Assembly: GCF_036971445.1 (NCBI RefSeq)
Contig: NC_091475.1
Span: 16,058,001-16,122,000 of the forward strand
Length of the DNA: 64,000 bases
Reading direction: 5' to 3'
Source of the DNA: Narcine bancroftii
Lineage: Eukaryota
The notes under the pieces: generated by a model
The model's database searches: none
What the model was told of the DNA's origin: nothing
The model's input: the letters and a program-made list of their open reading frames with translations, nothing else
Shown: positions 5,361 to 50,430 of the stretch, piece after piece
Position numbering within the stretch: the stretch's first letter is position 1
How the letters are laid out: every line of letters starts with the position of its first letter
Translations under genes and position numbers: made by a program

Positions 5361-5361
<1 letters not shown>

Positions 5362-5396: not shown

Positions 5397-5398
<2 letters not shown>

Positions 5399-17790: not shown

Positions 17791-18134
17791 CAGGTGGTCC
17801 CCGACATACGTCTTGAGTTCTGTTCTGACCGATCGGTCAGATGTCGAGATGGACGCAAGTTGGATGTGTTACTCTGGGCCTGCGCTCACCTCCCTCACTG
17901 GTTCTGCCACTACCTTCGTATCCCAAAAAACAAAATATGTAAGGCGGCAGCTATGTCTCAATGCCCTCCTGGTGAGTGGCCACTGACATGTTGATCCGTT
18001 AAAATAAACAGCCCCTAGATCTGCATAAGTTTTGTATTTACATATGTTTTCTTTATTGTTAAAAATTTATACAGGGGGTTGGTCGTATGTATGGATGGTC
18101 GTAACTAGCATAGGTCATAAGTAGGGGACGTTTG
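17791..18134. mobile_element. Tigger-type MITE
   Basis: TA|CAGGTGGTCCCCGACATACG ... CATAAGTAGGGGACGTTTG|TA. Confidence 0.6.
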
Positions 18135-18949
18135 TATTGTCATATACATTGTAAATATGCACCAAAATTCTTGCTTGATGCAACCGAACAGGCACTTCAT
18201 AAAAAAAAACACAATGAATAATTCAAATAAAGAAGGGTCAATCAAAACAAAGGATACATCAATAAATATGCAGTTATCCAATTGTAAGAAAAATAAAGAC
18301 TTTAGTGCAGACAGTTCTTTTGTAGTATTACAGCAGTCATTGAGAAATGTAATAAGGGGAGGTTCAAGAACCTGATAGCTGTTGCAAAGAAACTAACCTC
18401 TGTTTGCTATCTTTTGTAGCCATCTGCATTCCTGAACAATCAAATTACCAAACAGGACTGTGATGCAACCAGGGGACAAAAATCTGGTAGTCTTAACATT
18501 AGTCACCAAGGCACATTCCACAATGCATCTGTGAAAGATTTATATGGAGTATTTGATGACATGCTAAATCATTCCTTATTCCTTAGAAAGTAGAGGTGTT
18601 TACATGGAGGTGAGGGGGTCAGAGGGTTATTGGCGGTGAGCGAGAGGTTTGAGCTAGTGGAGTTGTTCTAGTGAACCGGTGCGGACTCGAAAGGCTGACA
18701 TGGCCTGTTTCCGCTCTGTAAATGGTTATATGGTTATGGTTAAATGGAGCAGATCATCCCTCCCCGAGATGTGGGATTGGCGGAATGAGAGGACGAGGAG
18801 CATGTTGCGCAAAGAGAAGGCGGCGAGGACAGGTAGGGAAGGCGAAGTGGATGCCGTGGCAGTGGCAAGGGATGATTGTGGGGTGAAGGGTCGAAGTAGG
18901 TAAATTTTAATGGGGGAGGGCAATTTCAGTGCTTACCCTAGGCACTATT

Positions 18950-21350: not shown

Positions 21351-21782
21351 ACCAACATGGACCGCCACCCCTGGATGCCCACTCCCCCCTTCAGCAGGTC
21401 TGCTCCGACAGCTGATTTACAACAGAACAACTTGGGGTGCCAGTGCTGCGATTTTCCTCTGAAAGGTGACCCACTCCCAGCAAAATCCATGATGGGAGTG
21501 GGTAGCCTTTGAAGAGGGGAATTGCAGCCTGGGGCTCCTCTCCCTGGCTGCCCCTCCCTTCAATCTGCGTGAAGCTGAGAATTGCTGAACCGACTTGATA
21601 TAACCATACCTTGTCAAATCCCACTCTGGTAAATGTGACCCCCATTACAGTCAACATGACTGCCAAGCCACTACTCAAAGCAGATTCAATTGAAATGGTA
21701 AAAGATGAACGATATTTAACAATCAATCTTCCATTCACAACGCATCAAAATGAACTGAATTAAAACCCTCTTCCTCCTTCAC

Positions 21783-21812
21783 CTTCAGACCAAATCTCAC
21801 TGGCGCAGCCAT
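21783..21812 (-). CDS. ATP5PO: ATP synthase peripheral stalk subunit OSCP, coding exon 1 (MAAPVRFGLK)
   Basis: Minus strand reads gaaaATGGCTGCGCCAGTGAGATTTGGTCTGAAG|gtgaag. It resembles the vertebrate OSCP N-terminus (MAAP...), is phase 0 and sits next to a GC-rich promoter. Confidence 0.88.
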
Positions 21813-25973: not shown

Positions 25974-28400
25974 CTCTAGTACAGCAACCTTCTTCATTGG
26001 TACTCCATAAACCAACTTAAGCATTAATTCCCTTTAATACTGTGCCACAGTGGCTACAATGTTTACCGATGACAAGGAACACCTTCAGTTGCAAGACCCC
26101 CTCCAACTTGCATTCTGATTTGATAATACATTGCTGGTCCTTTGTGCTAGGTCCAAATCCCTATCCAGCAGCACAATGGATGTTCTTTTATTGGAAGTGT
26201 TGCAGCAGTTCATGAAGGTGGGCTACCATCTGAAATTAAATGCTGGTCTTTCCAGTGACACTCCAAAATATACAAAAATGTCGTATTTTATTTATATATA
26301 AATAAATACACATTTGTTTATGTATATACGTGCACCTATATAGATGTGTGTGTGTGTGTGTGTATATACCTGAGCCACCAGGGGACAGCATTAATCTGCA
26401 CCGCTTGAAATATATTCTGGGGCATCCTTGTAAGGAAAGTTGGAAGTACATTTCTACACTTTATGAAAATTAGGTTATGATTAATATTGCCTTTTTGCCT
26501 TTTGATATCCATAAAGACTATCTTGTATCTGTGATGTTCATTAATGATATTACTTCATAACTCTTGACTTCAAATGGTAACTCTTGTCTTCAACTCCCTT
26601 TGTGACCATGGTCATCCCAATAGCCCCAGCCCTAGAACGCTTTGGGACCTGTTCTCCATTCTGTAAGACTGCATAAATCCCTATTCTCTTAACTCCACTA
26701 TTAATGGCTGTTCAAGGTCATGCATTTTCTTCCTAATCCTCGCATCTCTGCCTCCCTTCTTCAATTTAAAATGGTCCTTAAAACCTCTATCTTTGTTCAT
26801 GTCTCCTTTTGTGGCACAGTGTCAGATTTGTTTTTTTTAAAGCATTTTAGTGTGTTAAATGTCTTATTTCAATGCAAGATGTTAGTGTTAGCTACTTTAC
26901 ATTTTTGAATTCTTTCATACTTTGGTAGATGTAATTTGATAGTTGAATTTACAGTAGATAATGATTAGCACCTGAGAATATCTGATCAAGAAAATAGGAG
27001 AAATTATAGCAATATCACTGGAAAGGGAACTTTCAAAGAGATCAGTAGGCAGTGTTATATTTTAAAAAAAAATTGGGACCTATCAGCCCAAGACAAGGTT
27101 TTGTGGCATTGCCTCATGGGCAAATTTGGAAATGGAAGGAAAAAAGGGGGAGCACAACCCAGACTCCTGTGGTTTGACTCTTCCATCGAAACATTGACTA
27201 TCTTGACTGCCAGCATCTGTGACCTGGAGGATTGGGACTTCTCAGCCATCAACTTGGATGCTGACCATTTACCAAATCCACAAAGGAGATTGTCATTGAT
27301 TGTGAGTGATGAACTTCATCTACATAATAAAAAAGGTGACCCAAATCCATTTGATAATTTAGAAATGATTTGAATGTGGTTGAATCTTAGCCTTCCTTCC
27401 CTTTTAAGATATTTTTTTCAACTCTAGGCAATGTACCCCTCTGCACTTTGTACAATTCTTTTAAATCACTGGCTTCTTCCTCTGGGTTAAAAATGAAAGC
27501 AGTATATAGTCAAAATGAATAGCTTCAGGTGGAAGCTTATCATGCAAATCAATGTTTTTCCACTTTTTCTCACCCGCTCCGTGTTTATCTTTTCCATAAC
27601 ACTCAATACTATTCCTTTGAGTCCATTCTTATTCAATTATTGAGTTGATTCTTGCTCAACCATTGATCATCTAACCATCTTCTCAGGTCTCCATGCTGGC
27701 CGATCAAATAAATGGTTCCATACTCTTGCAACATGTCACCTTGCAAAACCATTTGCTTTTTCAATTTCCCATACATTTGTCAATGTCCACTTCCTTTCAA
27801 GCAACAGAAGCATCGAGCCAGGAACCTTGCAGGGTCCTTGCTTTGTTCCACTCTAAGTGTACAGTTGCCTCAGTCTTTTGCACCCCACACCTCTGGACCT
27901 TCACATACACTCCTAAACCAAGGTTATTGTCCTTCCACCTGATCTCATATTTCCAATTATATTTACAAGAGGACTCTTGATATTTTTTTTCATATAGGAC
28001 GCGCTATATTCAATATGAAGTGTTTTATCTGAACGTTAGACAAAAGTGGAAAATTGTTGGTTAAGATGCATCTCTGTTGCTTTCTGATCATAGCAAGCTG
28101 TGTTAATATATGCAAGATGTCAAAGATTGAAAAATTCCTGCTGCATGAATGCTAATTGCCTGTGACCACGAGATTGCTCCAAAATAAAAGATTATTTTAT
28201 CTTAGTTATAGAAAGTACATGTTTTAAAAATGTTGTGTTGTGACCTTTTGTCTGGCTCTGTCTTGGTGTGGGAAGATGCACATATTTTGTCTTTGTAAAT
28301 TAATTAATTTACATCTTACAATTGAACAATTTCAAATATCCCACAATATTGTCCTTAAGTTTGCATCCACTTTATTTTCCATGCCCTTAATATTGATTAT

Positions 28401-28917
28401 CCCTTACATCCCTAACGTCGAAGTACTCGAGATGGCAGAGGTCGACAGCATCGAGTCCACGCTGCTGAAGATCCAGCTGCGCTGGATGGGTCACGTCTCC
28501 AGAATGGAGGACCATCGCCTTCCCAAGATCGTGTTATATGGCGAGCTCTCCACTGGCCACCGTGACAGAGGTGCACCAAAGAAAAGGTACAAGGACTGCC
28601 TAAAGAAATCTCTTGGTGCCTGCCACATTGACCACCGCCAGTGGGCTGATATCGCCTCAAACCGTGCATCTTGGCGCCTCACAGTTTGGCGGGCAGCAAC
28701 CTCCTTTGAAGAAGACCGCAGAGCCTACCTCACTGACAAAAGGCAAAGGAGGAAAAACCCAACACCCAACCCCAACCAACCAATTTTCCCCTGCAACCGC
28801 TGCAATCGTGTCTGCCTGTCCCGCATCGGACTTGTCAGCCACAAACGAGCCTGCAGCTGACGTGGACTTTTTACCCCCTCCATAAATCTTCGTCCGCGAA
28901 GCCAAGCCAAGCCAAAG
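28401..28917 (+). mobile_element. Young 5'-truncated RTE-clade LINE
   Basis: Uninterrupted C-terminal ORF (QLRWMGHVSRMEDHRLPKIVLYGEL...FPCNRCNRVCLSRIGLVSH), an (AGCCA)n tail and a perfect 12-bp TSD AATATTGATTAT (28389-28400 and 28918-28929). Confidence 0.9.
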
Positions 28918-30314
28918 AATATTGATTATGGATTGGGGAAAAAAAATCTCCCCAGACATTTCTCTTAAATGACAGATATTTCTAACTTTTGCATCTCATA
29001 GATGCCTTCATGATTTACAATTAATCTAAATTAACAATTAATCTTATTCAACTATCTGCATTGGAAAGTCTGAAAATATCTTTGTATGATGTTAATATAT
29101 AAATGTTAAATATGTTTGCCTAAAATTTCTCGTATGTATTACTCTTTAATTTTAATTAATGCTTTCACTAAAATAACAATTAATTTAATGTTCTAAGGAT
29201 TTAATACTTGTATCTTGCAGTATAATTTGTGTCTTAGATAAATGATTCAGTTTGCTTTGCACATAAACTATTGACATTCAGCTTTGAACTTGGATCAACG
29301 TTTGCTATTTGAAATGTGAGCTGTATAATCATAAATAATTAGCTTTTGGATAAGATCTTAAAGATCAATGCAGTGTTCACTCAAAATTTCATAAAATTGT
29401 TGATCGATCGTTGAGCCTTGCTGTGTAGCTCTTCCTTACGTACATAGTTCCTAGCTTAAAATACATTTGGGTGTGACTCCAAATAATTTACTTCAATGTA
29501 TCCACAACTAGCAAAAGTCATTTGGCAGAACTCAGCTTTTCATCCACTTTAATGTCATGTGGTGTCATTCTTGCATGAAATACCAGCAGAATTTAAAATG
29601 GCATGTCACAAGATCCTTCAAATTCTCACCAATTTTTTTTACCAAGAGATTTCGAGTTAGTGATGCCGTTAGACCTTGGCCTGTAAGGATGCAGTTTTGT
29701 ACCGAGGTCCCGAAGATCATACTGTAAATGATCAAAAGCTGGACACAGGAATCTATGTTTTCAGATTTTCCTGCTGGCAGCGGTGTGCGTAATGGGAACC
29801 TCACAACTTGGCAAGTCAGGATTTTTTACACCACCACTTGCTGCTACTGTCTGCTTGAGCTGACTGGAACATTCCCACTCAAGACTTTTGTCAGTTGTCA
29901 ATAGTCGGCCAATCTGTCGTATTCTCAACAATTGTACATTTTGATTTTTGAAATTTTTTTTAACAGTGATCTTCCCTCATTTTTGAATCCATAATACCCC
30001 AGGTATCTTGCTAACAGATCAGCACTTTATTAATAATATTTTCTTGTGATTTCCATTCTTGTATCAAGCTGTTTACGTTGCTGAGAAGATGCACAAATTT
30101 TGAAGGAGTTAATTTAGGAAAATGCCACAATATTAATTCTGACCAGCAGTTTCATAAAATGCTGGTCAGTCACTTGCCTATATTTTGTCATACCTTGAAG
30201 GGCTCAAGCCTGAAACGTTGGTTATGTATCCTTATCTTTGTAGTCTATAAAGTGCACTGTTTGACCTGCTGAGTTTCTGCAGCATTGTCTTAAACTTCAA
30301 CTATGGTGTCTGCT

Positions 30315-31535
30315 TTTTGTGATTTTATTTAATACCTGGTTTAGATCTTCCCAAAACTTTTCCACTTTCTCACATGCCCAAATTGCATGTGTTCCCGTTT
30401 CCTTCTTACAGCGAAAACATTGATCTGATATTGTTGGGTCCCATTTATTTAACTTTTGGGGCCTGTGTAACCAATTATATTGTATCATGTGTAACCTCAT
30501 GTTTTTTGTATTTCTCAGCGTTCTGGAGCACAGCTTTTCCCATGTTTCATTCGTTATCTTTATGTTTAGATCTTGTTCCCATTTTTGTTTGGGTTTACAA
30601 CTTGTTTCCTCGTTCTCTTTCTCTTGCAGTTGGATGTACATGTTGGCGATAAATCTTTTAATTATCATTGTGTCTGTAATCACATATTCAAAATTGCTTC
30701 CTTCTGGTAACCTCAGCCTGCTTCCCAATTTGTCCTTCGAGTAGGTTTTCAGTTGGTGGTATGCAAACATTGTACCGTGAGTTATACCATATTTGACCTT
30801 CATTTGTTCAAAAGATAATTTATTTCCCGAAAAGCAGTTTTCTATTCTTTTGATGCCTTTTCTCTTCCATTCTCTAAAGGAAAGGTTATCTATTGTGAAA
30901 GGGAGTAGTTGATTTTGCGTCAATATTAATTTTGGTAGTTGATCATTTGTTCTATTCCTTTCTATGTGAATCTTCCAAATATTGAGCAGATGTTGCAGTA
31001 CTGGTGTTCTTTCTTCTAAGTAATATAAGAAGTAAAGAACTTGGACTCGATTTAGATGGAGCACAAAAAACATTTATTATGATAGCCTTAGCTGTAGCAA
31101 AACAATGTATTATGTCAACCTGAAAATCAGAAGAGAGCCTGAGAATACAGCAATGGTTCATAGAAATGAATAAATGTATTCCATTGGAAAAAAATAACAT
31201 AAAATTTAAGAAATAACATCACAGTATTCGAACAAATTTGGGAACCGTACATGGAACACAACACACCACGGACCTCCACCGCCTAAAATGATAGAATGAG
31301 AAGAAGACGGAATGAACTGACCCAGTGTGTAAAAGTAGAAGACACAAATTTCTTGTTTATTTTCATTGTGTGACGACATTGTTTAATGTATGGTATAGGT
31401 TGAACATTGAGTGGGTGTGGAGGGGGGGGGGGGGTGAAGGAGGGAGGGGGAAAAAGGGGAGAAAATGACACTGTGTCTATCTAGAGGGAAACGTTTGTGT
31501 GTATTTTGGTCAGTATGGTTCATAGTGTGAAAAAT
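30315..31535. mobile_element. L1-clade LINE with 5' inversion
   Basis: About 30315-31008 encodes ORF2 C-terminal and zinc-finger sequence on the minus strand (KQKWEQDL, IQYNWLHR, CFRCKKETGTHAIWAC). About 31010-31535 continues ORF2 on the plus strand (LLSNIRSK...ALAVAKQCIMST) with a G-rich 3' UTR and A-tail. Flanking repeat TGGTGTCTGCT at 30304-30314 and 31540-31550. Confidence 0.85.
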
Positions 31536-31759
31536 ACCCTGGTGTCTGCTGAATTTCATGTTTGGAAGCTAGAGAGTGATAGGATGGTCCCTGTATTGTG
31601 CAGGTTGCTCCATGAAAGATCTCCCCCAGCTGCTACTGTCTATAATGCGAAGTGATACATGCCATGAATATAAGATACCTCCTGCAACAATGAAGTACAA
31701 GCTTCCCCACGATCGCAGGGACCAGCTCATCCAGAAAGATTGATTGAGCTGGGAGGAGG

Positions 31760-32400
31760 AGCTGGATGATGCCCCGGGGCGACGTCAGTGGGGAAAACTG
31801 ATCTTCGGGAGGGTTTTTTAACAGCCGACGGCATGTGCGGAGGCCGGGGACGACTGCGCCTTTAACCGAGCCGCGCCTTTAAGCGGGGCGCGGCTGCGCA
31901 TTGGGGCCGCGGGGGCCGAAGCGAGCGAGCGAGCGCAGCTATAAAGGAGCCGCGTGGCCGAGCCGCGGGGGTCCCACCAACCATGCCCAGATATGAGCTC
32001 GCGGTGATTCTGAAAGCCATGCAGCGGGTGAGTGTTCTCACACACACACACGCGCGCAAACCAGAAAAAGAACCCCGGAGTCAATAGGCCGGTAGGGCCC
32101 CCTCCCCGGGCTGCGGGTCGGGGCCGCCTGGCGTGTTGCGGCTCCGGGAACACTGGGCGGGAGGGGGGCGAGGTGAAGAGACCGCTTGGACTCTGGCCCG
32201 CAGACTCCCCGCTCCATCCCTCCCCGGTGGTGCTTGGAGGTGGAGCAACTTCTCATCTCCGTCTTTATTCCACAAAGAAGGTTCCGGGACTGTGCCGAGT
32301 TTCTCCAGCCCTTTTCCAATCTCATCTCCAAAGTTGCCCCGGTGCGAATTCCTACTTTCCCCTCTGAAGTTCCTGCTTGAAATGACCTGAGGGATATGCG
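31760..32400 (+). promoter_or_regulatory. CpG-island promoter shared by MRPS6 and SLC5A3
   Basis: Strong GC/CpG enrichment, CRE-like CGACGTCA (31780-31787), GC-box-like GGGGCGCGG, GCTGCGCATTGG (NRF1 half-site/CCAAT) and TATAAA (31940-31945) ahead of the ATG. Confidence 0.8.
31983..32027 (+). CDS. MRPS6: Mitochondrial ribosomal protein S6 (bS6m), coding exon 1 (MPRYELAVILKAMQR)
   Basis: ccaaccATGCCCAGATATGAGCTC...CAGCGG|gtgagt, near-identical to the vertebrate MRPS6 N-terminus MPRYELALILKAMQR, with a consensus donor. Downstream exons were not found and are probably to the right of the window. Confidence 0.95.
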
Positions 32401-35400
32401 CCCTTTTTCTTTTAAAGCCGGGTGTGCAATTCATGAATTTGAACTGCGGGTGCATATTGTATTTCAAAATCTTGCGAGGAGACAGGGTGTCAAAAGCATT
32501 TGATACTTTGTATCCAACGTTTTGTTCCTGGCATCATCTATGGTGGAGGGTTCCAAGTCTGCAAACCCTTGTCTCTGTCCCGAAACGACGGGTCGTGCAT
32601 GAGGACGCTGTTTTGAGATGACCACCTCTCTCCCTCTCCTCGAATTTAATCGCCAGCAAGAGAAAGCACCAGCGGGCATCACCTGGGTCTGAAGGAATCC
32701 TCCCTCTTTTGGGGCCAAGATAAATCCAGATGTTGATGCTAGGACTGTGTGTGTGGTTCAAGAAGACAGTATATAATTGGCCTGGACAGAAGGCAAGTTA
32801 TCTAGGTGGGAACCCTGTTTTAGGACAAATCCTCAGATGTCTCTGATCACAGTAGATGCAAATTGATCAATAAATGGGATTGACCAGGCCGGGGGAGAAA
32901 CAAAATTCAATGACAGTGAAAGTTTCAACTCAAATCATTTGTTGTATGTTGTGGTGACTGATATCTTTCATCTTAAAATCAGGTAAACTGAAGCCCAGAT
33001 TTCTAAATTTGAAATGCTAAATTTGTCTTTGTAACCTGAATTGTTGATTTTAAATGTTGGACAGTTTAAATAATAAAAGATGATTCCAAAGCTTGTGCAG
33101 CGATAGTATTTTTACTGTAATTACGTCTGTTATCTGGCGAGTCAGTTGGGACAGAGACATTTCTGCTTTTGAAAGATTCCTTTTATATTTATGTTTTGAC
33201 CAAATGCTAAAAATCTAATGTATCTGTCAGAATCTCCAGTCTTTGTTGCTTACAATCTTGGGGGCAGGTAAGTACTGGATTAAATCATTTGCAATTTTCT
33301 TCATACCATTTGGATCTTTCTGGGTGGAAATTATTTCAGGTGAATTTAAGATGCATATGGAATGTTATTTTGCCTGGAAAAGGAGGTAATGTATTTTTTA
33401 ATTCAGTTTAAAAAAAAAAGCTTATTCTGTTCTATGGCTGTTTCCTCCACAGCTAAGGGATTTCAGTTGTTTAAATAAAAATATTCAGTACTTTAAAAGC
33501 TGCAATTTACTTGCACATTCTTCATTGATTCCATTACGTCATTAAAATCTTTGTCATCCTTAAACTGCATTTTCTCCCGGGGCCGGGGGAGTCTATATTA
33601 TTTGGAGAGATCCAGGTTGGTACACCCCTTTTGTAAAATTACTGAGGAAGATGCATGATGAGGGACTTCCTCATTTTTGCAGTCCACCTAATTTGAATAC
33701 TTTTTTGTTAATGATTTCCTCCACCATAGGAATTACCGTAGTTACTTTCTATTGATTCCATCAAGTTAATTTTAACACTTGACTTCTATAACCCAAAATT
33801 GTGGGATGGATGAGGGTTCTGACTAATTGTGACCATAACTACTTCTTTGTAGGGCACTTTAAGGAGAAAAACATTTAAATATCCTTTACTAAGCTGCGTA
33901 CTAACTTTTTACGATTTTAGACTTGGAAGTACTTTTATTAATTATTCTTCCAGCTTCCATTTTAAAAATTAAACACAATTTATCTTTTTGCATACAAAAG
34001 GGATACATGTTCAATGTGTTTAAACCCCTTACTCCAAAGTTTCATTCATTTACTCCATGTTATTAATGTTCATTTGTAACTTTCTGGTCACATTTCCACT
34101 AATGTTCTTCCTAATCTGGAAAGATCTGCAAACATGATCTGCTTCTATTCCTTCATCCAAATCATTATCAAATATGAAAAAAAAGACGAGGGACGGAGAC
34201 TGCAGATGCAGGACTCTGGAGCAAAATAAATGGCTGGACGAACTCAGTGGATCAGGTAGCATCTGTGGAGGCAAAAGGATTTGTTGACACTTCAGTCAAG
34301 ACACTGAATCAGGACTGATGAAAAGTGGAGCTGTTTTAATGAGGCCACGCATCATTTTCTTCCAGGGAGTGTTAACTTCTTTTTGTGTCTTCCATTTTAA
34401 ATGAAAGAAATTAGAAAGGTGTGATTTATTATGGAAAAGTATTAACCATGCATATTGAGCCTGAGAACAAAGGCTGAAATCAACATTGGTGTGTGAAAGA
34501 GGTATGGTAGATTGTCTGTACAGCAATGCAATAAACAAGTCAGATCATTTTTTTTCTCTTTATGGGTCTTGTGATACAGTTCTAATTTAGTAACAGAATA
34601 AAATAAGTAGCAATAGTTCTAGTGATGAAATAGTAAAGAGAAATTTTACTTTGATCTTTCCAGGTTTAAAGAATTTTGTTTAAATTCTTCCTTTGGCCTA
34701 GTCTAAAATAGTAATAAACACACAAGTTCCTGATGTCATGTAGATTTTTTGGGCAAGAATTGGTTTCACATTTAAGATTTGAAGATAATAGCATTATTTC
34801 CAGTTGTCTTGTGAACTGAAATGTGCCAAACCGGATCAGAATTGGAAATAATGTAACAGGGTTGTTATTACTTTGGTTTTGTTTCCATTATTGCTTTAAA
34901 GCTTGTAAATCCTTGCACAGAAGGGTCCCTTCAAAAACAGTCTTTATCCAAATGTGGGGTAAAGATATGTCATGGCTGACGGTGAGGAAAATGAAGCCTG
35001 CCTCTTGTGATCTGGCTTTTTCCCCAGCAGTTTTTCCTGAGCTTGCCTTTTATCTCTCTATCCTAGCCCCAACATGTCCAAAAATGAACCAGGCCATGGA
35101 ATTAAATCAGTGGTAGGGTGATAGATACATCTTGGCAAAAGGTTTGTTGATTAAAATTCAATCAAAGTGAAATGTTTTAAACTATGTATTCCATTGGTGA
35201 TGTGCCAAGCAAGATTTTAATTTCCTGTCAGTGTTGACTTGGAATTTGCGAAATGGCTGCTGTTAGCTACACCTTTTCTGGTTACCATGAAAAAAGAACA
35301 GTATTGGTTTCTGCAAAATATACAAAGTAAATTGTTGCGAAGTCGCTGCATGGTTTGAAGCTTGAAATTAATGCTTTATCAATTTGATTTACAAAAAGCT

Positions 35401-38400
35401 GTTTAGAAAGGGAATATTTATGTGGCAACAAAATGTTCATGAAGCTGAACATGTTAACAAGGCTATTGTTTATTGTATAATAACAAATATTCATTCTACA
35501 CTATGTGTGCTAGTTTTGAACTGCAGGTAGGTGGGTTGGATATACAATAATTATGTGTAGCCTAAACCCATTTCCTAGAGACTGTATAATTGAATTTGTA
35601 CGAGTAAGATTAGTTTCCAAACAAGATGGAAAAAATTGATTCCAAGTTATTTTAAAATACTTTTTTCAGAAAGTTTGTTTATATTTTTTAATTGAGAAAT
35701 CAAGGAGGAAGAACAATTATTACTACAGGACACTCACTACCCAAGTAGATAAAGACTACCAGGTAAATGAATTCATAAATAATGTTAAATGAAGTTTATA
35801 AACAAGGTTGTAAGAAGTGAAAAAGAGATGAGGTATTAGTGAATTTGCAACAAAATGAGAATGTAAAAGATTGCTTTAAAACTCCAAATAGCCCTGAGAG
35901 GAACATTATCTCTATGACTCCAGTCAGTTTGAAAAGTTGAAGGATTGAATCAATGAAATGTAGAAATTAAGAACTGTTGGATGAGTTGTTTTTCTTCTAG
36001 CTTGTTCAGTTATATATGAGCAAATATTTTTTGTAGAGAAGTGGTATTTGCAACTACCAACAGATTTACCTTTTAACATTTAAGAGTAAGAGCTTATTTG
36101 GCCCAAATGTTATAAAAGTTCCAGTGGTGAAGAAGCTGAGGCAAAATAAAGGAATAAGCATAGAAAATAATTGATTTCTATTTAAGGAAAACTACTTTTA
36201 GAGAATGGAGTGGGGAAGATTACCCATGATTCATTAGTATGCCAGAACTTTGGTTAATGAATTTAAAATATGTAGGTTATGATAAAAAGACCAGTAAAAG
36301 GTGATAATGGGATTCTAGTAAATTATCCAATTAAAAATGATTGAATGAACTAGTAGTATCTGTGTCATATATGGTATTTCGGCAGCACTGGTGTGGTAGG
36401 AAAATGTTTAATATCTTCATTACAAGTGTGCAACTGCTTATTTCAACACCGTTTGGATATGTGCAAAGCTGTATAAATAGCTAAACAGAGCAGAGCTGTT
36501 GAGATGTATAATATGGCAAATTGGTAAAAATAGGTATGAATTTGGCTACAAAAATCAAAAAGCAAACAAATTTGAAGTTAGAAGCAAATTGTTACTTGAA
36601 GTTGCTTCCTCAATGATATGGGTGTAGATTAGAATATTGCTTGTGTTGTACTGAGAAGAAAGCTATTGAAAAGAACAGTAAGCTTTTGTTATTATCTGTA
36701 AATAAACTGCAGCAATCTTACATTATGTTTTTATTTGACCAAACCTTTCATGGCCATCTACATTCCAACTTGTGGGGACTTGCGTATGTATACAAAAGAT
36801 TAGGTGTCATTTAAGTAGATGACACTCAAAAATGCTATTTCTTCTAACCATACTCCACCAGGTAAAATCTATTCTAAGGAATAGACAGAAAGTGAAAGAA
36901 AAGGAGATGAAAAATATCAAAATCCATTAGTTCAATAAAACACTAAATAAATGTAAAGGAATTAAATCATGTTTGTAAAAGTAAATTTTCAGTTTGCTTG
37001 GCAGTAATAAATCAGTAAATAAAATTTAGTTACACTAAAATTGACAAACGTAGCTTTTTTTTCTGGCACATTTATTCATAGTGCCACAATTTCCACGGCT
37101 GCCATGTTTCAGAGCAGAACAAATAGGACAGCAAATTCCTTATTTCCATATTTAAATCTATGTGTCGAAATTTGTCCAGTTTACTTTTCAGTTTTTTTTC
37201 TAGTGGTGATTGCTTCTCATTGTGATGCTTGCAAAGATGCATTTTAATGTGATGGCAAGATCTTTTAAGTTTATTAAATTTGGGATGGAGGGTCAAATTA
37301 ATATCCCCTTATTCACAGAACCATAGAACATTACAACACATAGACAGGCCTTTTGGCCCTTCTAGTCTGTGCCAAACCATTTTTCGGCCCAATCTCATTG
37401 ACCTGCTCCCAGTCCATAGGCCTCCATACTACTTCCATCCATGTGCCTTTAATTCTTTTTGTGAAAAAATATGTAATATGTTGATATAGGAAAAGTTGAG
37501 AAGGAATTGGGGTAGATACAAGCAAATGAAACGAGGTAGACAACTCGGTGGGCATGGACAAGTTAGGCTGAAGGAATTGTTTCTATGCGACAAAACTGGC
37601 TTTAATACTAAATAAGTACCTGTATATAATAAATTACATAGTGCACCAACAATTTTTTTGTTGGCTACAGTGTTCTTCCAAGAAATTTAGAATTACATCT
37701 CCATGTTTAGCAGCGAGGTACAGTATTGAGTTTGCTGAAGCCACAACTGATTAGAGAACTTTCACAACGCTATTGTCAGGAATGAGTCAAGCATATCAAA
37801 CAATTTGTCACTTCTCAGTCATTTATATTAAGAATATCTATATAGTTGTCAGAGAGAAGTTTTAAAATTTGCCCAAGTTGCAATTTAATGCATGGTTTTG
37901 TCCTGAATCATAGAGGTAGGACTGGTAGCTTTGTAGAAAACGGTAAAATGGAGCCATGACATGTACACTACATTTGATGGTAGCAATGGATCATTTAGCC
38001 TCTCTTGAATGCAATGACTCCAGCACTTGTGTTAAAGGTGCATTGCTGTCAATGGTACATACAGTGCAACTGTAAGCTTAGGATACCTGCACCATTCATG
38101 TGCCTCACGTGAACCTCAGAAGTGCAAATCTTTTGGAAAACCCGCAGTTTCTCCTTTCTGCATACGTAAGTAGATATCTTCTAACCACTTACTTATAACA
38201 TTCTGCTATGGTAAAATTTAAGGCAAATACTCTTTATGATTTAAGGGTTTTTTTTTGTTGTTGCATCAGTTGGGCTGCCATTACATTAATATTACCACAC
38301 AACTCTCTCACTATCTGTTTAAATGCAGCTTGAAACATATTTAAATGCATATCACTTAGTATTTGTAGCTTTTGAAACATTTCACAGAATTGACGGTTGA

Positions 38401-38859
38401 AATTCTAGGTGTGACTGAACCCTTCAGACTGGAAGCTTCCAGTTTTAAAAATCCGGTCTCTTAAGTTAGCAGATCTGAAATACATTCAAGGTGATGCAGT
38501 AGAGTTGGCGTCCATGTCATCATGGTGGGAAAGTAAACTGATAGCTCGTGATTGCTATCCTGTAATCCCTAATGGAATTTGCTTGTCAAAATGTTATCAC
38601 TTAATGTGATTCTCAGCAGTGGATGGCTAGATTTGACTTGGATGAGATTAGATTCAGCAATTAGAGCATCAATTTATTATTGAGTTTGTTCACTTTCTAA
38701 TGTGGGATCATTGAATAGCAATCAGGAATGTAAACTTTAGTTCATTATTCATCCAACCCATCCCAACAATGTACTCTCCCCTCAATTCAACCCCACCATC
38801 TCCCTGCCTTTTGAACACCAGATCAAAGTACTAAGGTGAATAATAGCACCCAGTAATTT

Positions 38860-39200
38860 TTCACAGACCAGAGATTAACATCGACTTCTCTGGTTTCTGC
38901 TAACTTGCTCGCCTTTTTTTCCCCTCCGATTTCCAATTATCCCTCCCTTCCCCCCCTCCACTCGCCCAGCCTTCCCTCCTCCCCCCGATCACTGCTGTTC
39001 CCTCCATGCCTTCTCCACCTATCACTTCCTATCTTTGTCTCCCCGTCCATCCCCCCCACCCTTTGTTCGGACGCCTGCTGGCATTCTTCCGTACCTTGAT
39101 GACTGGCTCAAGCCTGAAACGTCGGTTATGTATTTTTTACGTTTGCTACATAAAAAAATACTGACCAGCTGAGTTTCTTCAGCATTTTGTGTTTTTACAT
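38860..39200 (+). mobile_element. Penelope-derived/SINE-like 3' tail
   Basis: Pyrimidine-rich tract plus ccttgatgactggctcaagcctgaaacgtcggttatg...gagtttcttcagcatt. This tail recurs at about 30190-30300, 46340-46450 and 55455-55550. Confidence 0.55.
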
Positions 39201-40284
39201 TAAATATGGGGTATCCCATCACTTTATTACATAATTCCCAATGTACAACAAGACTCCATCTCAGCTTTGCCACTACAAAACCAAGTTGTTGCATTAGCAT
39301 TGTCAAAAGTGAAAATGTTAGTCTGATCTGTAACACAAAAATGACATCAGAACTTAACTTTTTTTTCAAATCTGCTGATACTAAAATGCTCTAAAACGCC
39401 TAAATTATGTTTAAATGTCTGTGGTGAGGGAAATAAATTGCACAACAATCAACAACAACATGGTCTTTAGTTGGGCAAAGCAAATCATTCTCAATTTCAA
39501 AATTGTTTTTTAGTTGTCACTTTCTTAAGATTCCTTCAGATATCTTGTGAAGTTTTAATTTGCTTGTTTTTTTTGTTTAGATTTGGTGTATAGTGGTGGT
39601 TCTTTCCTCCACTGTGACCAGTACAATCTTTAAATTTTGGGAATTTTCAGTCACATGATTTGTCTTTGTTTTGAATATTTTAATATGCTGAACGTAAATC
39701 ACCTGTTTTTGTGTGTTAAATTTAAGATGCTTCAAGTGTTTTTTGCTATGCATGTCAATGTACAAATTTTCACTGATACTATTTTAAATTTGATGGCATA
39801 ACTGTCTGAATCAATTTTTTAAATCATAAATAGGGAAGCATTGGTTTCTTGAAAATGTTGTTTAAGGATTTCTCAAAACAAATCGTACAGAGGCTTCACA
39901 TCCACATACAGTATATGAAATTTTTAAGTATGGGATTGGTGCCATGTGGTTTGTTTTGTTTTTTGAAAAATCCTTGAAGGCAACCATCATAAAATTATTT
40001 GATTTTTATCAATCTTGAAGGTGTTTGCACTTTCATTCCCGATGCATATAAAAGTAGGCTCAGAAAGTCTTATGATCAGTAATAATTCTGATCGGAGGCT
40101 TTCAGACTTTCCATTTTAAAATGGAAAACCAGATTTCAGTTTTCTCACTTTTGTATGCCATTAATCATTGGGGGGTGGGGGGGGGGAACTCATCACGTAT
40201 TCTACTTTTCCAGAAATTGACCTAATATCATTTCTAATTCTAATATCATTTTTTTTTTTGTCTTTTGTCTTTGCTATCTTGCAG

Positions 40285-40561
40285 GAGTGTAACTCTAAAC
40301 CTTGCTAGACTTCTCAGCAACAGCTAAGAATTTCAACACCAACAAATTAAGCTGTGCCTGTCTTGTGGAATTGCTGCTTAAAAAACATGAGAAATAGTCA
40401 AACGTGAAGTTCACAAGATAAATAGCATTCCTGTACCTGTACAACTGGAATCCTGCAGGTTCAAATCAAGGCAGCAAACGAAAGGACAAATATTTTACCT
40501 TTTTCGTTATTTCATTAGTAACCTGGCTGTTGTCTGGCTTTGAATCTAAACTATTATAAAC
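40285..40561 (+). other. SLC5A3: SLC5A3 exon 2 splice acceptor and 5' UTR portion
   Basis: Long pyrimidine tract (ttttttttttgtcttttgtctttgctatcttgcag|G) ending at 40284, with repeated CTAAT branch-like motifs at about 40222-40243. The acceptor is 277 nt before the SLC5A3 ATG. Confidence 0.8.
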
Positions 40562-42694
40562 ATGTTTGGCTTAATGGAAACAGCTGACTTGGCTGTTGTA
40601 GGACTTTATTTTGTTCTTGTATTGTGCATTGGATTTTTTGCGATGTGGAAGTCCAACAGAAGTACCGTGAGTGGGTACTTCCTTGCAGGACGCTCCATGA
40701 CCTGGGTGGCAATAGGTGCTTCATTGTTTGTGAGTAATATTGGGAGTGAACATTTTATTGGTCTAGCAGGATCTGGAGCTGCCAGTGGTTTTGCAGTTGG
40801 AGCTTGGGAGTTCAATGCAGTATTACTTTTGCAACTATTAGGTTGGGTTTTCATCCCAGTCTATATTAGATCTGGTGTGTATACCATGCCACAATACCTT
40901 TCGAAGCGTTATGGTGGGAACAGAATGAAAATTTATTTTGCTTTGTTGTCCTTGCTGTTGTACGTCTCCACCAAGCTTTCTGTGGACTTGTATGCTGGGG
41001 CACTCTTCATTCGGCTATCACTGGGCTGGGACCTTTATCTCTCCATCATCATTTTGATTGGATTGACTGCAGTGTTAACTGTCACAGGAGGACTTGTGGC
41101 TGTGATCTACACCGATGTTCTGCAGGCCATTCTTATGATTGGCGGAGCTTTAACGTTGATGGTTGTCGGTATGGTCAAGGTGGGAGGCTTTGAGGAAATG
41201 AAACGAAGATACATGCTCGCCTCTCCAAATGTTACTGCAGTCATAACTTCCTTCAACTTGAGTTCAATGAATATTTGCCAGATCCGCCCAAAAGAAGATT
41301 CTCTAAAGATGCTACGTGAACCAACTGATGAGGATATTCCTTGGCCTGGATTCATGTTGGGTCAAACACCAGCCTCTGGTTGGTATTGGTGTGCTGATCA
41401 AGTCATTGTGCAACGAGTCTTGGCAGCAAAGAACATTGCTCATGCCAAAGGAGCCACTCTGATGGCTGGTTTTTTGAAAATCTTGCCCATGTTTATCATC
41501 GTCATTCCAGGGATGATTTCCAGGATTCTCTTTACTGATGAAGTTGTTTGCATTAATCCAGAGCACTGCATGCAAGTGTGCGGCAGCAGTGCAGGTTGCT
41601 CCAATATCGCCTATCCACGCCTGGTGTTGGGAATCTTACCTGTAGGTCTCCGTGGTCTAATGATGGCAGTCATGATAGCAGCTTTGATGAGTGATTTGGA
41701 TTCTATCTTCAATAGTGCCAGCACAATATTCACCCTTGATGTCTACAAGCATCTTCGAAAGGTTGCCAGCTCTCGAGAACTTATGGTAGTGGGTCGTTTA
41801 TTTGTTGTCTTCATGGTAGGTATAAGCATTGCCTGGGTTCCTGTAATTGTAGAGATGCAAGGAGGGCAGATGTATCTTTATGTCCAAGAGGTAGCAAATT
41901 ATCTCACACCCCCTGTGGCCGCCGTGTTTCTACTTAGTATTTTCTGGAGACGTTGCAATGAAAAGGGGGCTTTCTGTGGAGGGTTAGTTGGGTCCATTTT
42001 GGGAATGATTCGTTTGATTCTTGCCTTTGTATACCATGTGCCAGAATGTGACCAGCCTGACACCAGACCAAGTTTTATCAGAAACATTCACTATATGTAT
42101 GTGGCAGCAGTTCTGTTCTGGAGCACTATCGTTACAGCAGTCATAGTAAGTCTACTGACTCCTGCTCTTCCGAGAGAACATACTCGTCGCACCACATTCT
42201 GGTCCTTGAAAGACTCTGCTAATGTGAAAAGCTCGCAGACAGACGAATCGGCGAAACTGGCAAAGGGAACTGTGTCTGAAAACAATGCCAGTACCAGATG
42301 TGTGGATAAGACTGACTGTGGTCAGAAAGATGCTGATGGAATAGAATTAGCTCTGTTAATGTCTGGCAATGATGATTCCAAATCTTTGTGCGCACCATCC
42401 AGCACTGAAGGACCAATGCCAGCTGGTGGTTATCTACATAGACAGGCATCTGTGGACCAAGAAACCAATGGGAAACCTCAACTGGAAAGAAGCAAGTGGT
42501 GGAGAATTTTTGAATGCTTTTGTGGATTAAAAATGTATGACATGACAAATCCAGCACCAAAATATACTATAGAAGATGAACGTATTTGCTTGAAAATGCT
42601 TCAAGAGAGCACCAAGATTAAAATACTGTTAAATATTGGACTTTTAGTTGTATTGTCTTCTGGGATATCTATGTTCATTTATTTCTCTTTGTAA
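40562..42694 (+). CDS. SLC5A3: Sodium/myo-inositol cotransporter SMIT1 (SLC5/SSS family), intronless CDS, 710 aa
   Basis: SSS motifs GYFLAGRSM, SLFVSNIGSEHFIGLAGSGAASG, WYWCADQVIVQRVLAAKN and MIAALMSDLDSIFNSASTIFTLD, and a C-terminal IYFSL. A single-exon CDS inside MRPS6 intron 1 matches the known SLC5A3 arrangement. Confidence 0.98.
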   Translation: MFGLMETADLAVVGLYFVLVLCIGFFAMWKSNRSTVSGYFLAGRSMTWVAIGASLFVSNIGSEHFIGLAGSGAASGFAVGAWEFNAVLLLQLLGWVFIPVYIRSGVYTMPQYLSKRYGGNRMKIYFALLSLLLYVSTKLSVDLYAGALFIRLSLGWDLYLSIIILIGLTAVLTVTGGLVAVIYTDVLQAILMIGGALTLMVVGMVKVGGFEEMKRRYMLASPNVTAVITSFNLSSMNICQIRPKEDSLKMLREPTDEDIPWPGFMLGQTPASGWYWCADQVIVQRVLAAKNIAHAKGATLMAGFLKILPMFIIVIPGMISRILFTDEVVCINPEHCMQVCGSSAGCSNIAYPRLVLGILPVGLRGLMMAVMIAALMSDLDSIFNSASTIFTLDVYKHLRKVASSRELMVVGRLFVVFMVGISIAWVPVIVEMQGGQMYLYVQEVANYLTPPVAAVFLLSIFWRRCNEKGAFCGGLVGSILGMIRLILAFVYHVPECDQPDTRPSFIRNIHYMYVAAVLFWSTIVTAVIVSLLTPALPREHTRRTTFWSLKDSANVKSSQTDESAKLAKGTVSENNASTRCVDKTDCGQKDADGIELALLMSGNDDSKSLCAPSSTEGPMPAGGYLHRQASVDQETNGKPQLERSKWWRIFECFCGLKMYDMTNPAPKYTIEDERICLKMLQESTKIKILLNIGLLVVLSSGISMFIYFSL

Positions 42695-42926
42695 AATCAG
42701 TCTGCAGGTTTAAGTGAACGCAGTTTTGGTTTTGAAGATGTCTCTGTTCCTTTTGTTGGCCTGATAGAAAGCTTTTATGGCCTGCTAATTAATTATTAGG
42801 GATGCTTAATGGGAAAGTTAATTATCAAAGAAATTTGTTTGTGTCCAGTCTGATCTTTGATCAAAGGCAGTAAAATTGTTTAAAGTGGGGAATGAGCGCA
42901 TTTCATCTTCTGACTTGATTTTCAGT

Positions 42927-43170
42927 AACTACTGGAAACAAGGATTTTAGATGAGGACTAGTTTAGAACTACTGGAAACAAGGATTTTAGATGAGGACTA
43001 GTTTAGAACTACTGGAAACAAGGATTTTAGATGAGGACTAGTTTAGAACTACTGGAAACAAGGATTTTAGATGAGGACTAGTTTAGAACTACTGGAAACA
43101 AGGATTTTAGATGAGGACTAGTTTAGAACTACTGGAAACAAGGATTTTAGATGAGGACTAGTTTAGAACT
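42927..43170. repeat. Perfect 40-bp minisatellite x6, just downstream of the SLC5A3 stop
   Basis: Unit ACTGGAAACAAGGATTTTAGATGAGGACTAGTTTAGAACT at 42931, 42971, 43011, 43051, 43091 and 43131, with no mismatches. Confidence 0.97.
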
Positions 43171-43189: not shown

Positions 43190-44280
43190 CTTTTATTTTT
43201 TAAAAATATTTTATTTAAAAATTTTAAATCACATAACATTGATTACAGTATCCTGATAAAAACATAATGTGACTATATATATATATATTAAAAAAACCCA
43301 ACCACCCGACTAATACTCTCCCTCCTCCTTTACCCACCTACAAAAGAAAGAAAAGGAGATCATCAACAAATACGGTCATATTCGAACTTTTTAGCTGAGG
43401 TGGTGGCGGCACCTACGGACCGAGAGATCAAATTTTAACACCTATAATTTTCAAATATGGACTCCAAACTTTAATAAAGAAAAAATATTTATCTCTCAAA
43501 TTGTATGTTATCTTTTATAAAGGAATACAAGCTTTCCTTCCATGATGCCATCTTTTAATACTTAAAACCAAGTCAGACATTTTTTTTAGAAACAGCCAAA
43601 GCCAAATGTAAAAATTAATTTTGATACAAAGTCATTCTCAATCCTAAAGCAATTGACTTATTGTCCCTTATTAAAAACAATAATGAATCAAAAGGTAAAT
43701 TCACATTTAATACCTGTTCTAAAAACAATTTAATTTGTAGCCAAAAACTTTTAACCTTAGGGCAAGTCCAGGTCGAGTGGGGAAAAAAAGTACCTATTTC
43801 TTTACCACACCCAAAACACAAATCTGAAGAACTAAGTTGAAATGTTTTCAATTTTTGTGGGGTTAAATGCAACTGATGTAGAAAATTATACTGTACCAAC
43901 CTATAATGTACATTTATAACCTTGGTCATACTATCTTTACACAAATTTCTCCAAACATTTTCATCTAGCTTCCTATTCAAGCCCAATTCCCATTTCATTC
44001 TTGATTTATGAGGACCTAATTTAGGGATTTTATTTCGTAACAACTTGTACATTTCAGAAATAAATTTACTTGAATCATCCTTAGTAAGTAGTAATTCCAA
44101 AGAAGTTTGCTTAGGTAATTTTAAACTGACCTAATTGTTCCAACAATTTTTTTTAACCTGATAATAACAAAAAAGGTATTCGAAGGGATTTTAAACTTCT
44201 CTCTCATACGATCAAAAGTCAAAAATCTTCCTGCTTCAAAGCAATCTTCAACTTTTTAAATCCCCATTTGATTCCAAATT
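43190..44280 (-). mobile_element. L1-clade LINE 3' fragment, antisense, downstream of the SLC5A3 CDS
   Basis: ORF 43615-44100 (KW..L...W..LC, VQYNFLHQLHLTPQKL, CFGCGKEIGT..HSTWTCPKVKSFW) and a T-rich end near 43190. Confidence 0.8.
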
Positions 44281-49100: not shown

Positions 49101-49449
49101 TTTGCCACCACACATTCTGGCTTTGAAGTGCCTTTATGCAAATACTAAACAACACTCAACTCATCTTTTATCTTGTGGTTTTCTTCCTGAAAAATAATTG
49201 GGAATTGTGATAGACAACTTCAAGATGAACACTTGATATAATTTCAGATTTGCTCTATCACACAGGAAGTTGGAGAAACATTAAATTAACTTTTATTGAA
49301 TTTAGCCGGTTTAATGATGATGACACATTACGTTAGTTCAATTGACCTAAAAATATTTTGCTGCTGATTTTCCATTTGTCCTCAGTCTCTGATGCCGCTC
49401 TTGTCAGTGTCCAGCAATAGTTGGCCAGCATTGATGGGTTCCAGTCACC

Positions 49450-50430
49450 CTGATGCCATTATTCCCTCTGTGCTGGTCAAGAAGCTACAAATTCTGGGCC
49501 TCTGTACCCACCTCTACCACTGGATCCTTGACTTTCTTATTGGAAGACCACAGTCAGTACGAATTGGAAACAACATCTCCTCCTCACTGACCATTAACAT
49601 GGGTGCGCCACAAAGATGCATGCTGAGCCCACTGCTCTTCTCGCTATACACCCATGGCTGGCCACATGCAATTTCAGTGCCATCTACAACTTTGTCGACG
49701 ATGGCTCAGTTGTCGGCAGAATCACAAATGGCAATGAGGAAGCGTACAGGAGGGAGGGACATCAGCTTGTTGAATGGTGTAACGCCAACCACCTTGTGCT
49801 CAATGTCAGCAAAATCAAGGAGTTAATTGTGAACTTCAGGAGGAAGTCAGGAAAACAGCCTAGTCCTCATCGAGGGCTCAGTAGTGGAGAGGGTCAAGAA
49901 CTTCAAAGTTCTGGGTGTCATCATCTCTGAGGATCTGTCCTGGAGCCACCACGTTAATGCAATCACTAAGAAGGTTTGCCAACAGCTATACTTTGAGGTG
50001 TCTTAGGAAGTTTGGTATGTCACTGAAGACTCTTGTAAACTTCAACAGGCTGGTTGCATCACTGCCTGGTATCTCAGGATAAGAAAACACTTAATAACTC
50101 AACCTGTGACATCACACCATTGAGGACATCTACATGAGGTGGTATCTTATAAAAGCAGTCTCTATCAAAGGCCCCCACCACCCAGGCCATCCCCCTCATC
50201 ACTCTTACCATTGGGGGAAAAGGTACAGGAGCCTGAAGACGAGCACTCAGCGGCACAAGAACAACTTCTTCCCCGCTGCCATCAGGTTCCTGAATAATCA
50301 AAGACACGGCCTTACTTTTCATGCACCGTTATAATTTTTATAGTAATGTTGTAAGATGGTTATAATATGTAAGTTTGCACTCAAAAAGGTGCTGTAAAAT
50401 ACTGAATTTCATGGCAATAAATTCTGATTC
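49450..50430 (+). mobile_element. Rex1/Babar-type LINE RT fragment
   Basis: WILDFLIGRPQSVRIG, GAPQ.CMLSPLLFSLYT, FVDD, LNVSKIKELIVNFRR and an AATAAATTCTGATTCTGA tail. Confidence 0.8.

What the first reader, a model, noticed from the sequence alone, without database searches (positions are those of the whole stretch)
31983..40561. MRPS6 start codon becomes a 22-codon uORF on the SLC5A3 mRNA (one promoter, one exon 1, two proteins)
Seen: joining the phase-0 MRPS6 donor (32027|gtgagt) to the acceptor at 40284/40285 reads MPRYELAVILKAMQR-ECNSKPC-stop (TAG 40306-40308). A second 6-codon uORF (ATG AGA AAT AGT CAA ACG TGA, 40387-40407) precedes the SMIT1 ATG at 40562. Established: in mammals SLC5A3 is nested in MRPS6 intron 1 and shares its first exon. 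Inference: the architecture is retained in this probable cartilaginous fish. Choice of acceptor and poly(A) site would then partition one transcript pool between a mitoribosomal protein and an osmolyte transporter, with SMIT1 made by reinitiation or leaky scanning. The two-uORF layout resembles ATF4-type stress control, but uORF2 does not overlap the CDS.
Basis: partly seen in the sequence, partly recalled or inferred. Interest (0 to 1): 0.7.

Follow-up and report, generated by a model that had tools for sequence, protein, structure and literature searches.

The report
Inositol transporter borrows mitoribosome gene's exon
In this ray, as already known in mammals, the inositol-transporter gene SLC5A3 sits inside the mitoribosomal gene MRPS6 and is spliced to its first exon, so the MRPS6 start codon opens a 22-codon upstream frame that likely just dampens transporter translation rather than acting as a stress switch; sharks and rays also carry a second transporter copy, which in this genome lies outside MRPS6.

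Summary
All coordinates check out. The 32027->40285 splice appears in assembled contigs of 2 of 4 runs laid, and an MRPS6-type exon-1 end joins the orthologous exon in another species. The shared exon is the known mammalian arrangement (PMC5387827). The uORF follows automatically from it; bird-like and teleost-like leaders would give 22 and 17 codons. The ATF4 idea is not supported. uORF2 does not overlap the CDS, its ATG is missing at that place in both outgroups, and human SLC5A3 is repressed like an average mRNA under arsenite (TE 0.23, Z 0.81). Mouse Mrps6 is itself induced by hypertonicity, which fits co-induction better than a trade-off. Best reading: a constitutive reinitiation tax on SMIT1. 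Translation itself was not tested.

The parts
31501..32500 (.). CpG island around the shared MRPS6/SLC5A3 promoter and exon 1
   Evidence: GC 0.56-0.67, CpG o/e 0.72-0.91
31948..32027 (+). Shared exon 1, short form (5' end not fixed; at or upstream of 31948)
   Evidence: 80-nt contig 31948-32027 in X2; loose ends into MRPS6 exon 2 in X2 and X4; joint to 40285 in X1 and X2; retrocopy begins at 31943
31983..32027 (+). MRPS6 codons 1-15, which are also codons 1-15 of uORF1; start context A at -3, C at +4
   Evidence: P0121 (122-aa bS6m) begins with the same 15 residues
31993..32007 (+).
32019..32021 (+). Second in-frame ATG of uORF1 (MRPS6 Met13; gives a 10-codon uORF)
   Evidence: Met at this position in 67 of 68 homologs with an intact N-terminus, of 100 examined
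32028..32982 (+). Exon-1 extension to a second donor CAG|GTAAAC; adds 13 uATGs and ends the MRPS6 frame at 32087 (34 codons); predicted NMD target
   Evidence: contigs over most or all of it in 4 of 4 runs; joint 32982->40285 in X3; uATG list
40255..40284 (+). SLC5A3 splice acceptor with a pyrimidine tract nearly identical in bird-like and teleost-like loci
40285..40308 (+). uORF1 codons 16-22 and TAG, just downstream of the only known junction of the short-form mRNA
   Evidence: stop at the same codon in the bird-like leader and in the paralog
40387..40407 (+). uORF2, 6 codons, 78 nt after the uORF1 stop and 154 nt before the SMIT1 ATG
   Evidence: kept in the paralog; ATG absent at this place in L004 and L005
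40465..40492 (+). Short conserved leader block (CAGCAAAC core), function not known
   Evidence: identity 26/33 to bird-like, 23/31 to teleost-like, 26/31 between those two
40562..42694 (+). SLC5A3 (SMIT1) intronless CDS, 710 aa; in-frame Met6 at 40574

Best explanation
One CpG-island promoter feeds exon 1, which is spliced either to the SLC5A3 exon 8.3 kb away or to MRPS6 exon 2 36.7 kb away; on the SLC5A3 mRNA the MRPS6 start codon opens a 22-codon uORF that likely acts as a constitutive damper, with SMIT1 likely made by reinitiation. Shown: both splices, the frame and the stop. Inferred: most 40S subunits start at the MRPS6 ATG (A at -3); a fraction resumes scanning after the short uORF and has 253 nt to regain ternary complex; pure leaky scanning is minor because it must pass four uATGs that all have a purine at -3. 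The uORF stop lies downstream of the junction and the CDS is intronless, so the short-form mRNA should escape EJC-dependent NMD, whereas the form using donor 32982 stops about 900 nt before its junction and should be degraded or poorly translated. The uORF is a by-product of borrowing a coding first exon, tolerated because it stays short and far from the CDS. It is not an ATF4-type switch.
For: Junction contigs in X1 and X2, and exon 1 joined to MRPS6 exon 2 in X2 and X4. An MRPS6-type exon-1 end joined to the nested exon in organism F, another study. Predicted uORF1 of 22/22/17 codons and stop-to-ATG spacer of 253/278/269 nt in ray, bird-like and teleost-like loci, with exon-2 uATG counts of 1/4/0. 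Human SLC5A3 TE change 0.23 (Z 0.81) against a median 5.4-fold drop, SLC35A4 9.75 (Z 5.87) (PMC4383229 supplement and passages). Mouse ES cells: SLC5A3 Ribo RPKM about equal to RNA RPKM, MRPS6 about 2-3.5 times higher, no significant TE change in the eIF2alpha knock-in (PMC10962698 supplements). Mrps6 is among 14 genes chosen for robust osmostress induction (PMC3378878 section 16). Short uORFs favour reinitiation and repress 5-10 fold (PMC10187673 passages).
Against: No ribosome data for this species. The exon-1 side of the junction contigs is 28-30 letters, and the four runs are one study with RNA guessed. Exon 1 is not on the L004 or L005 contigs, so their uORF1 lengths assume a 45-nt phase-0 MRPS6 exon, and L005 may not be a nested copy. 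The uORF2 block is the best-kept part of the leader between the two ray copies (38/42 against 54/72, 21/27, 24/37, 22/33, 22/55), its ATG shows no change in organisms B and F, and it sits 78 nt after the uORF1 stop, so an elasmobranch-specific control is not excluded. The mammalian stress data cover arsenite and ES cells, not hypertonicity. The mouse ratio compares a short CDS with a long one.
Confidence: 0.68

Rival explanations
1. Delayed-reinitiation switch (GCN4/ATF4 logic): after uORF1, fast-recharging ribosomes are caught by uORF2; under eIF2alpha phosphorylation they pass it and reach SMIT1.
For: uORF1 stop to uORF2 is 78 nt, uORF2 to CDS 154 nt. uORF2 is kept in both ray copies and its ATG is unchanged in organisms B and F. 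The bird-like leader has non-homologous uATGs 49 and 62 nt after the stop.
Against: uORF2 is 6 codons and does not overlap the CDS, so it should itself allow reinitiation. There is no uATG in the teleost-like leader. Human SLC5A3 Z is 0.81 under arsenite, and mouse knock-in TE padj is above 0.8.
Confidence: 0.1
2. Regulation is at splicing: use of donor 32982 turns the nested SLC5A3 (and probably MRPS6) transcript into an unproductive form in some tissues, where the free paralog supplies SMIT1. This can coexist with the best explanation.
For: The short joint is listed in X1 and X2, the long joint in X3, and the X4 leader contig breaks three letters into the acceptor as expected for the long donor (my inference). 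X3 and X4 are also the runs where paralog contigs are deepest (380 and 1100-5600, against 27 and 59 for nested leader contigs). The long leader has 17 uATGs.
Against: Four runs, one study, tissues not given; contigs show presence, not absence, and their depth cannot rank genes. The long form may be splicing noise.
Confidence: 0.22
3. SMIT1 is made mostly by leaky scanning, or from transcripts that start downstream of the MRPS6 ATG, so uORF1 hardly matters.
For: The MRPS6 ATG has C at +4, and a TATAAA at 31940 could place some starts only about 10 nt before the ATG, which would be leaky.
Against: Contig and retrocopy 5' ends reach 31948 and 31943. Four uATGs with a purine at -3 must be passed. 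No separate exon upstream of 40285 was listed among the joints.
Confidence: 0.12

Closest known systems
Mammalian MRPS6/SLC5A3 locus (human 21q22)
   Same: Genes share an exon that is in the reading frame of MRPS6 but not of SLC5A3 (PMC5387827 passage, citing Gardiner 2002). ATP5PO lies head-to-head upstream here, as recalled for human.
   Different: Here there is a second donor at 32982 and a second SLC5A3 gene outside MRPS6. Whether mammals use a matching long exon was not tested. The uORF consequence was not found discussed in searches.
Cholinergic gene locus (unc-17/cha-1; VAChT in ChAT intron 1)
   Same: A transporter gene nested in the first intron of its host, sharing the first exon and chosen by alternative processing (PMC3875643 passage).
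   Different: There the shared exon is untranslated and both products act in one pathway; here it carries the host's start codon and 15 codons, and the products have no known common pathway.
ATF4 / GCN4 delayed reinitiation
   Same: A first uORF followed about 80 nt later by a second uATG (ATF4 and GCN4 layouts recalled).
   Different: uORF1 is 22 codons rather than about 3; uORF2 is 6 codons and does not overlap the CDS; not conserved beyond elasmobranchs; no stress resistance in human or mouse data.
SLC35A4 and MIEF1 uORF-bearing mRNAs
   Same: A transporter or mitochondrial mRNA with an upstream frame tied to mitochondrial biology (microprotein roles recalled).
   Different: Their uORFs encode stable microproteins (recalled), and SLC35A4 is strongly ISR-resistant (TE 9.75). 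Here the uORF is a truncated MRPS6 N-terminus with a variable 2-7 residue tail.

Membership tests
Vertebrate MRPS6/SLC5A3 nested locus | Intronless SMIT1 CDS inside MRPS6 intron 1, same strand | tested here: met
Vertebrate MRPS6/SLC5A3 nested locus | Exon 1 spliced to both the SLC5A3 exon and MRPS6 exon 2 | tested here: met
   2 of 4 runs for each splice; 28-30 letters on the exon-1 side; organism F
Vertebrate MRPS6/SLC5A3 nested locus | Shared exon in frame for MRPS6 only | tested here: met
   stop after 22 codons; SMIT1 ATG in another frame
Vertebrate MRPS6/SLC5A3 nested locus | Tonicity (NFAT5/TonE) induction of the promoter | tested here: inconclusive
   17 matches to the recalled TonE consensus scattered over 64 kb, no cluster at the promoter; induction not testable
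ATF4-type delayed reinitiation | Very short, reinitiation-permissive uORF1 | tested here: inconclusive
   22 codons; permissiveness not measurable here
ATF4-type delayed reinitiation | Inhibitory uORF2 overlapping the main CDS out of frame | tested here: not met
   uORF2 ends 154 nt before the CDS
ATF4-type delayed reinitiation | Two-uORF layout conserved across vertebrates | tested here: not met
   exon-2 uATGs: ray 1, bird-like 4, teleost-like 0; only 2 outgroup loci were found
ATF4-type delayed reinitiation | CDS translation resistant to or induced by eIF2alpha phosphorylation | tested here: not met
   human orthologue TE 0.23, Z 0.81, threshold 4; mouse knock-in not significant; not testable in the ray itself
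Bicistronic mRNA with a functional uORF protein (SLC35A4 type) | Conserved, self-contained uORF peptide | tested here: not met
   tail residues differ in all 4 leaders and are 2 or 7 long

The most novel reading that the evidence does not exclude
Sharks and rays split SMIT1 between two linked genes: a copy nested in MRPS6, taxed by the MRPS6 uORF and switched off tissue by tissue through a long poison form of the shared exon, and an inverted duplicate that escaped MRPS6, gained its own upstream exons yet rebuilt a short uORF at the same junction, while gene conversion keeps their transport cores alike and their C-terminal loops diverge. The uORF would then be a selected brake on inositol uptake in urea-retaining fish, and the pair a natural test of why SLC5A3 has stayed inside MRPS6 throughout jawed vertebrates.
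Probability: 0.2. Interest if true: 0.7.

Novelty: new member of a known kind. Interest (0 to 1): 0.4.

Why it matters
SMIT1 is the main tonicity-induced inositol importer. Because its mRNA begins with the start codon of an essential mitoribosomal protein, every SMIT1 mRNA from this promoter carries an obligatory uORF, and variants in MRPS6 exon 1 or in the first 24 nt of the SLC5A3 exon could change SMIT1 output. Showing the layout in a ray dates it to the jawed-vertebrate ancestor. The elasmobranch duplicate outside MRPS6 offers a built-in comparison of nested and free copies. The stress-switch reading, which would have been the surprising one, is not supported.

Tried and rejected
No RNA holder was listed as such; the runs laid are guessed RNA. 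No consensus RNA structure in the four exon-2 leaders (0 pairs). A CpG-island exon at C16:16011749 (minus strand, no ATG in its last 160 nt) was considered as the paralog's first exon and as a decayed MRPS6 exon 1. Similarity was not significant for the exon (p 0.13 and 0.59; promoter plus exon 0.024 in GC-rich DNA), and no contig links it to the paralog. A 24/27 match between window 39363-39388 and a paralog upstream exon (E 0.04) has no donor in the window and was set aside. Intronic polyadenylation near 33085, suggested by the retrocopy end, had no contig cover beyond 32982 (absence of cover is not evidence). Of 18 metagenome loci only 2 were vertebrate SMIT1; the other 16 were dropped. No SLC5A3 rows in the supplements of PMC9491157, PMC10032668 (one file cut) or PMC10187673 (the uORF table could not be searched). 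The primary papers (Buccafusca 2008, Gardiner 2002) and two uORF catalogues were not available, so prior mention of the uORF in subscription journals or unseen supplements cannot be excluded. No earlier findings of this scan.
Full report
Observation. The 710-aa ORF is a sodium:solute symporter whose best named relatives are shark and ray sodium/myo-inositol cotransporters at 78-87% identity. The only Ribosomal_S6 match in the genome (8 candidates scored) is MRPS6 exon 2 at G000:C16:16126760, 4.8 kb beyond the window; exon 3 is near 16144016. Exon 1 plus exon 2 reads in frame and matches P0121, a 122-aa bS6m that its source labels Narcine bancroftii, on a contig of the same length as the window's. 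So this is a ray, and SLC5A3 lies in a 36.7-kb first intron of MRPS6.

Splicing evidence. Seventeen runs were listed, none on record as RNA. I laid the four best holders (one organism, one study; Logan contigs) on 31600-42900. The joint 32027->40285 with GT..AG ends is in X1 and X2; its exon-1 side is 28-30 letters, below the tool's 31-letter bar for a bridge. Exon 1 runs into MRPS6 exon 2 in X2 and X4 (loose ends of 29 and 141 letters). In a run of organism F from another study, a contig carrying ten letters shared with the nested copy continues into 30 letters that I read by hand as nine MRPS6-like codons ending in Gln-Arg; the start codon itself is not visible there. Kilobase skips with GT..AG ends argue that these contigs come from RNA.

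The short-form mRNA has four uATGs: 31983, 31993 (4 codons), 32019 (in frame with uORF1) and 40387, all with a purine at -3. A second donor, CAG|GTAAAC at 32982, extends exon 1 by 955 nt. Contigs cover most or all of this extension in 4 of 4 runs, and X3 has one 1328-nt contig joining it to 40285. That leader is 1312 nt with 17 uATGs, and the MRPS6 frame stops at 32087, about 900 nt before the junction, so it is predicted to be an NMD target (rule as stated in PMC10187673, passages). In X2 the extension contig has 27 further letters that lie nowhere in the stretch laid; MRPS6 exon 2 is the likely destination, not shown.

More than chance? In this sequence alone, no. A first in-frame stop within 8 codons occurs in 37% of Markov-simulated leaders, and the exon-2 leader is ATG-poor (1 seen, 4.2 expected, P 0.07). 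The uORF exists because a coding exon is borrowed.

Conservation. A metagenome scan gave 18 loci, of which 2 are vertebrate host DNA: L004, 98.7% identical to an owl SMIT1, and L005, which I judge teleost-like (67% to tetrapod hits). The acceptor tract is nearly identical in all three. Assuming the same 45-nt exon 1, which is not on these contigs, uORF1 would be 22, 22 and 17 codons and the spacer to the SMIT1 ATG 253, 278 and 269 nt. Exon-2 uATGs number 1, 4 and 0, and the uORF2 ATG is absent at the aligned place in both outgroups. The 15-residue N-terminus is intact in 68 of 100 MRPS6 homologs examined. What is kept is a short uORF1 and a long spacer; downstream uATGs come and go. A short block around CAGCAAAC is also kept, with no consensus structure.

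Mammalian data on stress control. In HEK293T cells under arsenite, SLC5A3 TE fell to 0.23 (Z 0.81) and MRPS6 to 0.16, against a median 5.4-fold drop and a threshold of Z 4; SLC35A4 rose to 9.75 (PMC4383229, supplement rows and passages). In mouse ES cells SLC5A3 TE did not differ between eIF2alpha knock-in and wild type (padj 0.85 and 0.83), and its Ribo-seq RPKM was about equal to its RNA RPKM while that of MRPS6 was about 2-3.5 times higher (PMC10962698, supplement rows). Mrps6 was one of 14 genes chosen for robust induction by osmostress in mouse fibroblasts (PMC3378878, section 16 part 1), which fits co-induction from one promoter better than a trade-off; primer positions were not checked. 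None of this tests hypertonic translation or the ray.

A second SLC5A3. The genome holds another copy at C16:15995777 on the minus strand, 94 kb upstream of the MRPS6 ATG, beyond ATP5PO and outside MRPS6; its product is P0013 (714 aa). No second MRPS6 exon 1 was found in 15.985-16.152 Mb (peptide pattern; the tblastn list was cut). In a tree of 21 proteins, residues 481-710 split the 15 elasmobranch rows into two clades, each with sharks and rays (9 rows 100/99; 6 rows 98/97), with the chimaera outside on weak support (84/73). Residues 1-480 instead group both ray copies together (7 rows, 97/96). The two copies here differ at 0 of 70 four-fold sites in codons 241-400 but are 59-73% identical beyond codon 500. 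This indicates a duplication before the shark-ray split with later gene conversion; no formal one-clade test was run. The paralog keeps the acceptor, a 7-codon frame-0 tail with its stop, and uORF2, and has one more uATG; the uORF2 block is the best-kept part of the leader between the copies (38/42). Its coding exon is joined to other upstream exons: a 50-nt exon ending at 15999218 (X3, X4, and X5 of organism B) and an exon ending at 15999906 (X4). Both junctions create an ATG, giving 14- and 8-codon uORFs. Exon ends often resemble this, so it may be chance. Paralog contigs are much deeper than nested ones in X3 and X4 and no deeper in X1 and X2, the same split as donor use. With four runs and contig depths this is a lead only.

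Mechanism. Shown: nesting, both splices, the uORF frames, the second donor, the duplicate. Inferred: initiation mainly at the MRPS6 ATG, termination 24 nt past the junction, partial reinitiation over 253 nt (short uORFs favour reinitiation and repressed a reporter 5-10 fold in PMC10187673; an optimum near 78 bases is stated in the abstract start of PMC6614817), some loss at uORF2, escape from EJC-dependent NMD for the short form but not the long one. I put 0.68 on a constitutive damper, 0.22 on regulated donor choice (compatible with it), 0.12 on leaky scanning or downstream starts and 0.10 on a GCN4/ATF4-like switch.

Comparison with what is known. [quoted passage not shown] The primary papers were not available. 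The cholinergic locus is the closest architectural analogue, with an untranslated shared exon (PMC3875643, passage). Searches for SLC5A3 with uORF (1 unrelated paper), with ribosome profiling or ISR terms (no listed paper held SLC5A3), with MRPS6 (listings seen) and with elasmobranch or duplication terms found no discussion of the uORF or of the duplicate. A stingray kidney study lists a single slc5a3 contig with similar levels in sea and fresh water (PMC9396271, table passage). Subscription papers and unseen supplements may hold either point.

Verdict. Real and confirmed, but in essence the orthologue of a known mammalian locus; the stress-switch reading is not supported. The second donor and the escaped elasmobranch duplicate are the new parts. 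Interest 0.4.

Noticed in passing
G000:C16:15993633-15999906 (L023, L024, L031), minus strand: Second SLC5A3 gene outside MRPS6, from an elasmobranch-wide duplication; N-terminal two thirds homogenised with the nested copy, C-terminal loop diverged; own upstream exons whose junctions create uATGs.
   Followed up: yes
G000:C22:102.685-102.687 Mb (L002:273-1736, minus strand): Chimeric retrocopy: a full U6 snRNA (Rfam 100.9 bits) fused to unspliced MRPS6/SLC5A3 pre-mRNA 31943-33085, ending after an AATAAA with a short A run and a possible target-site duplication. It implies germline transcription from at or upstream of 31943.
   Followed up: partly
window 8716-21812, minus strand: ATP5PO (OSCP) exons at 8716-8814, 10303-10413, 15729-15818 and a first coding exon at 21812-21783, head-to-head with MRPS6 about 10 kb away. 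Its first exon is also phase 0 and lies on the same strand as the free SLC5A3 copy; read-through splicing was not tested.
   Followed up: partly
window 42927-43170: Perfect 40-bp tandem repeat, 6.1 copies, in the SLC5A3 3' UTR region.
   Followed up: no
window 57177-57375: 66-bp tandem repeat, 3 copies, in MRPS6 intron 1.
   Followed up: no
window 40465-40492: Leader block around CAGCAAAC conserved in ray, bird-like and teleost-like loci, 70-100 nt before the SMIT1 ATG in the ray; unexplained.
   Followed up: partly
P0166: A lungfish gene model fuses SMIT1 to MRPS6 exons 2-3 (789 aa, both Pfam families), suggesting a donor inside the SLC5A3 CDS or a modelling artefact.
   Followed up: no
L025:6749-6900, minus strand (G000:C16:16011749): CpG-island exon with CCAAT and GC boxes upstream and a GTGAGT donor, no ATG; candidate first exon of the free SLC5A3 copy, link not shown.
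   Followed up: partly
window 40562-42694, residues 27 and 87: The two elasmobranch clades differ at fixed N-terminal positions despite conversion: Ala/Val at 27 and Val/Met at 87 in 9 of 9 and 6 of 6 rows; possible functional divergence.
   Followed up: no
window 28276-28860, 30297-31073, 43615-44052, 49392-49930, 11500-12675: ORFs that look like fragments of LINE-type and DNA-transposon elements (family labels from recall).
   Followed up: no
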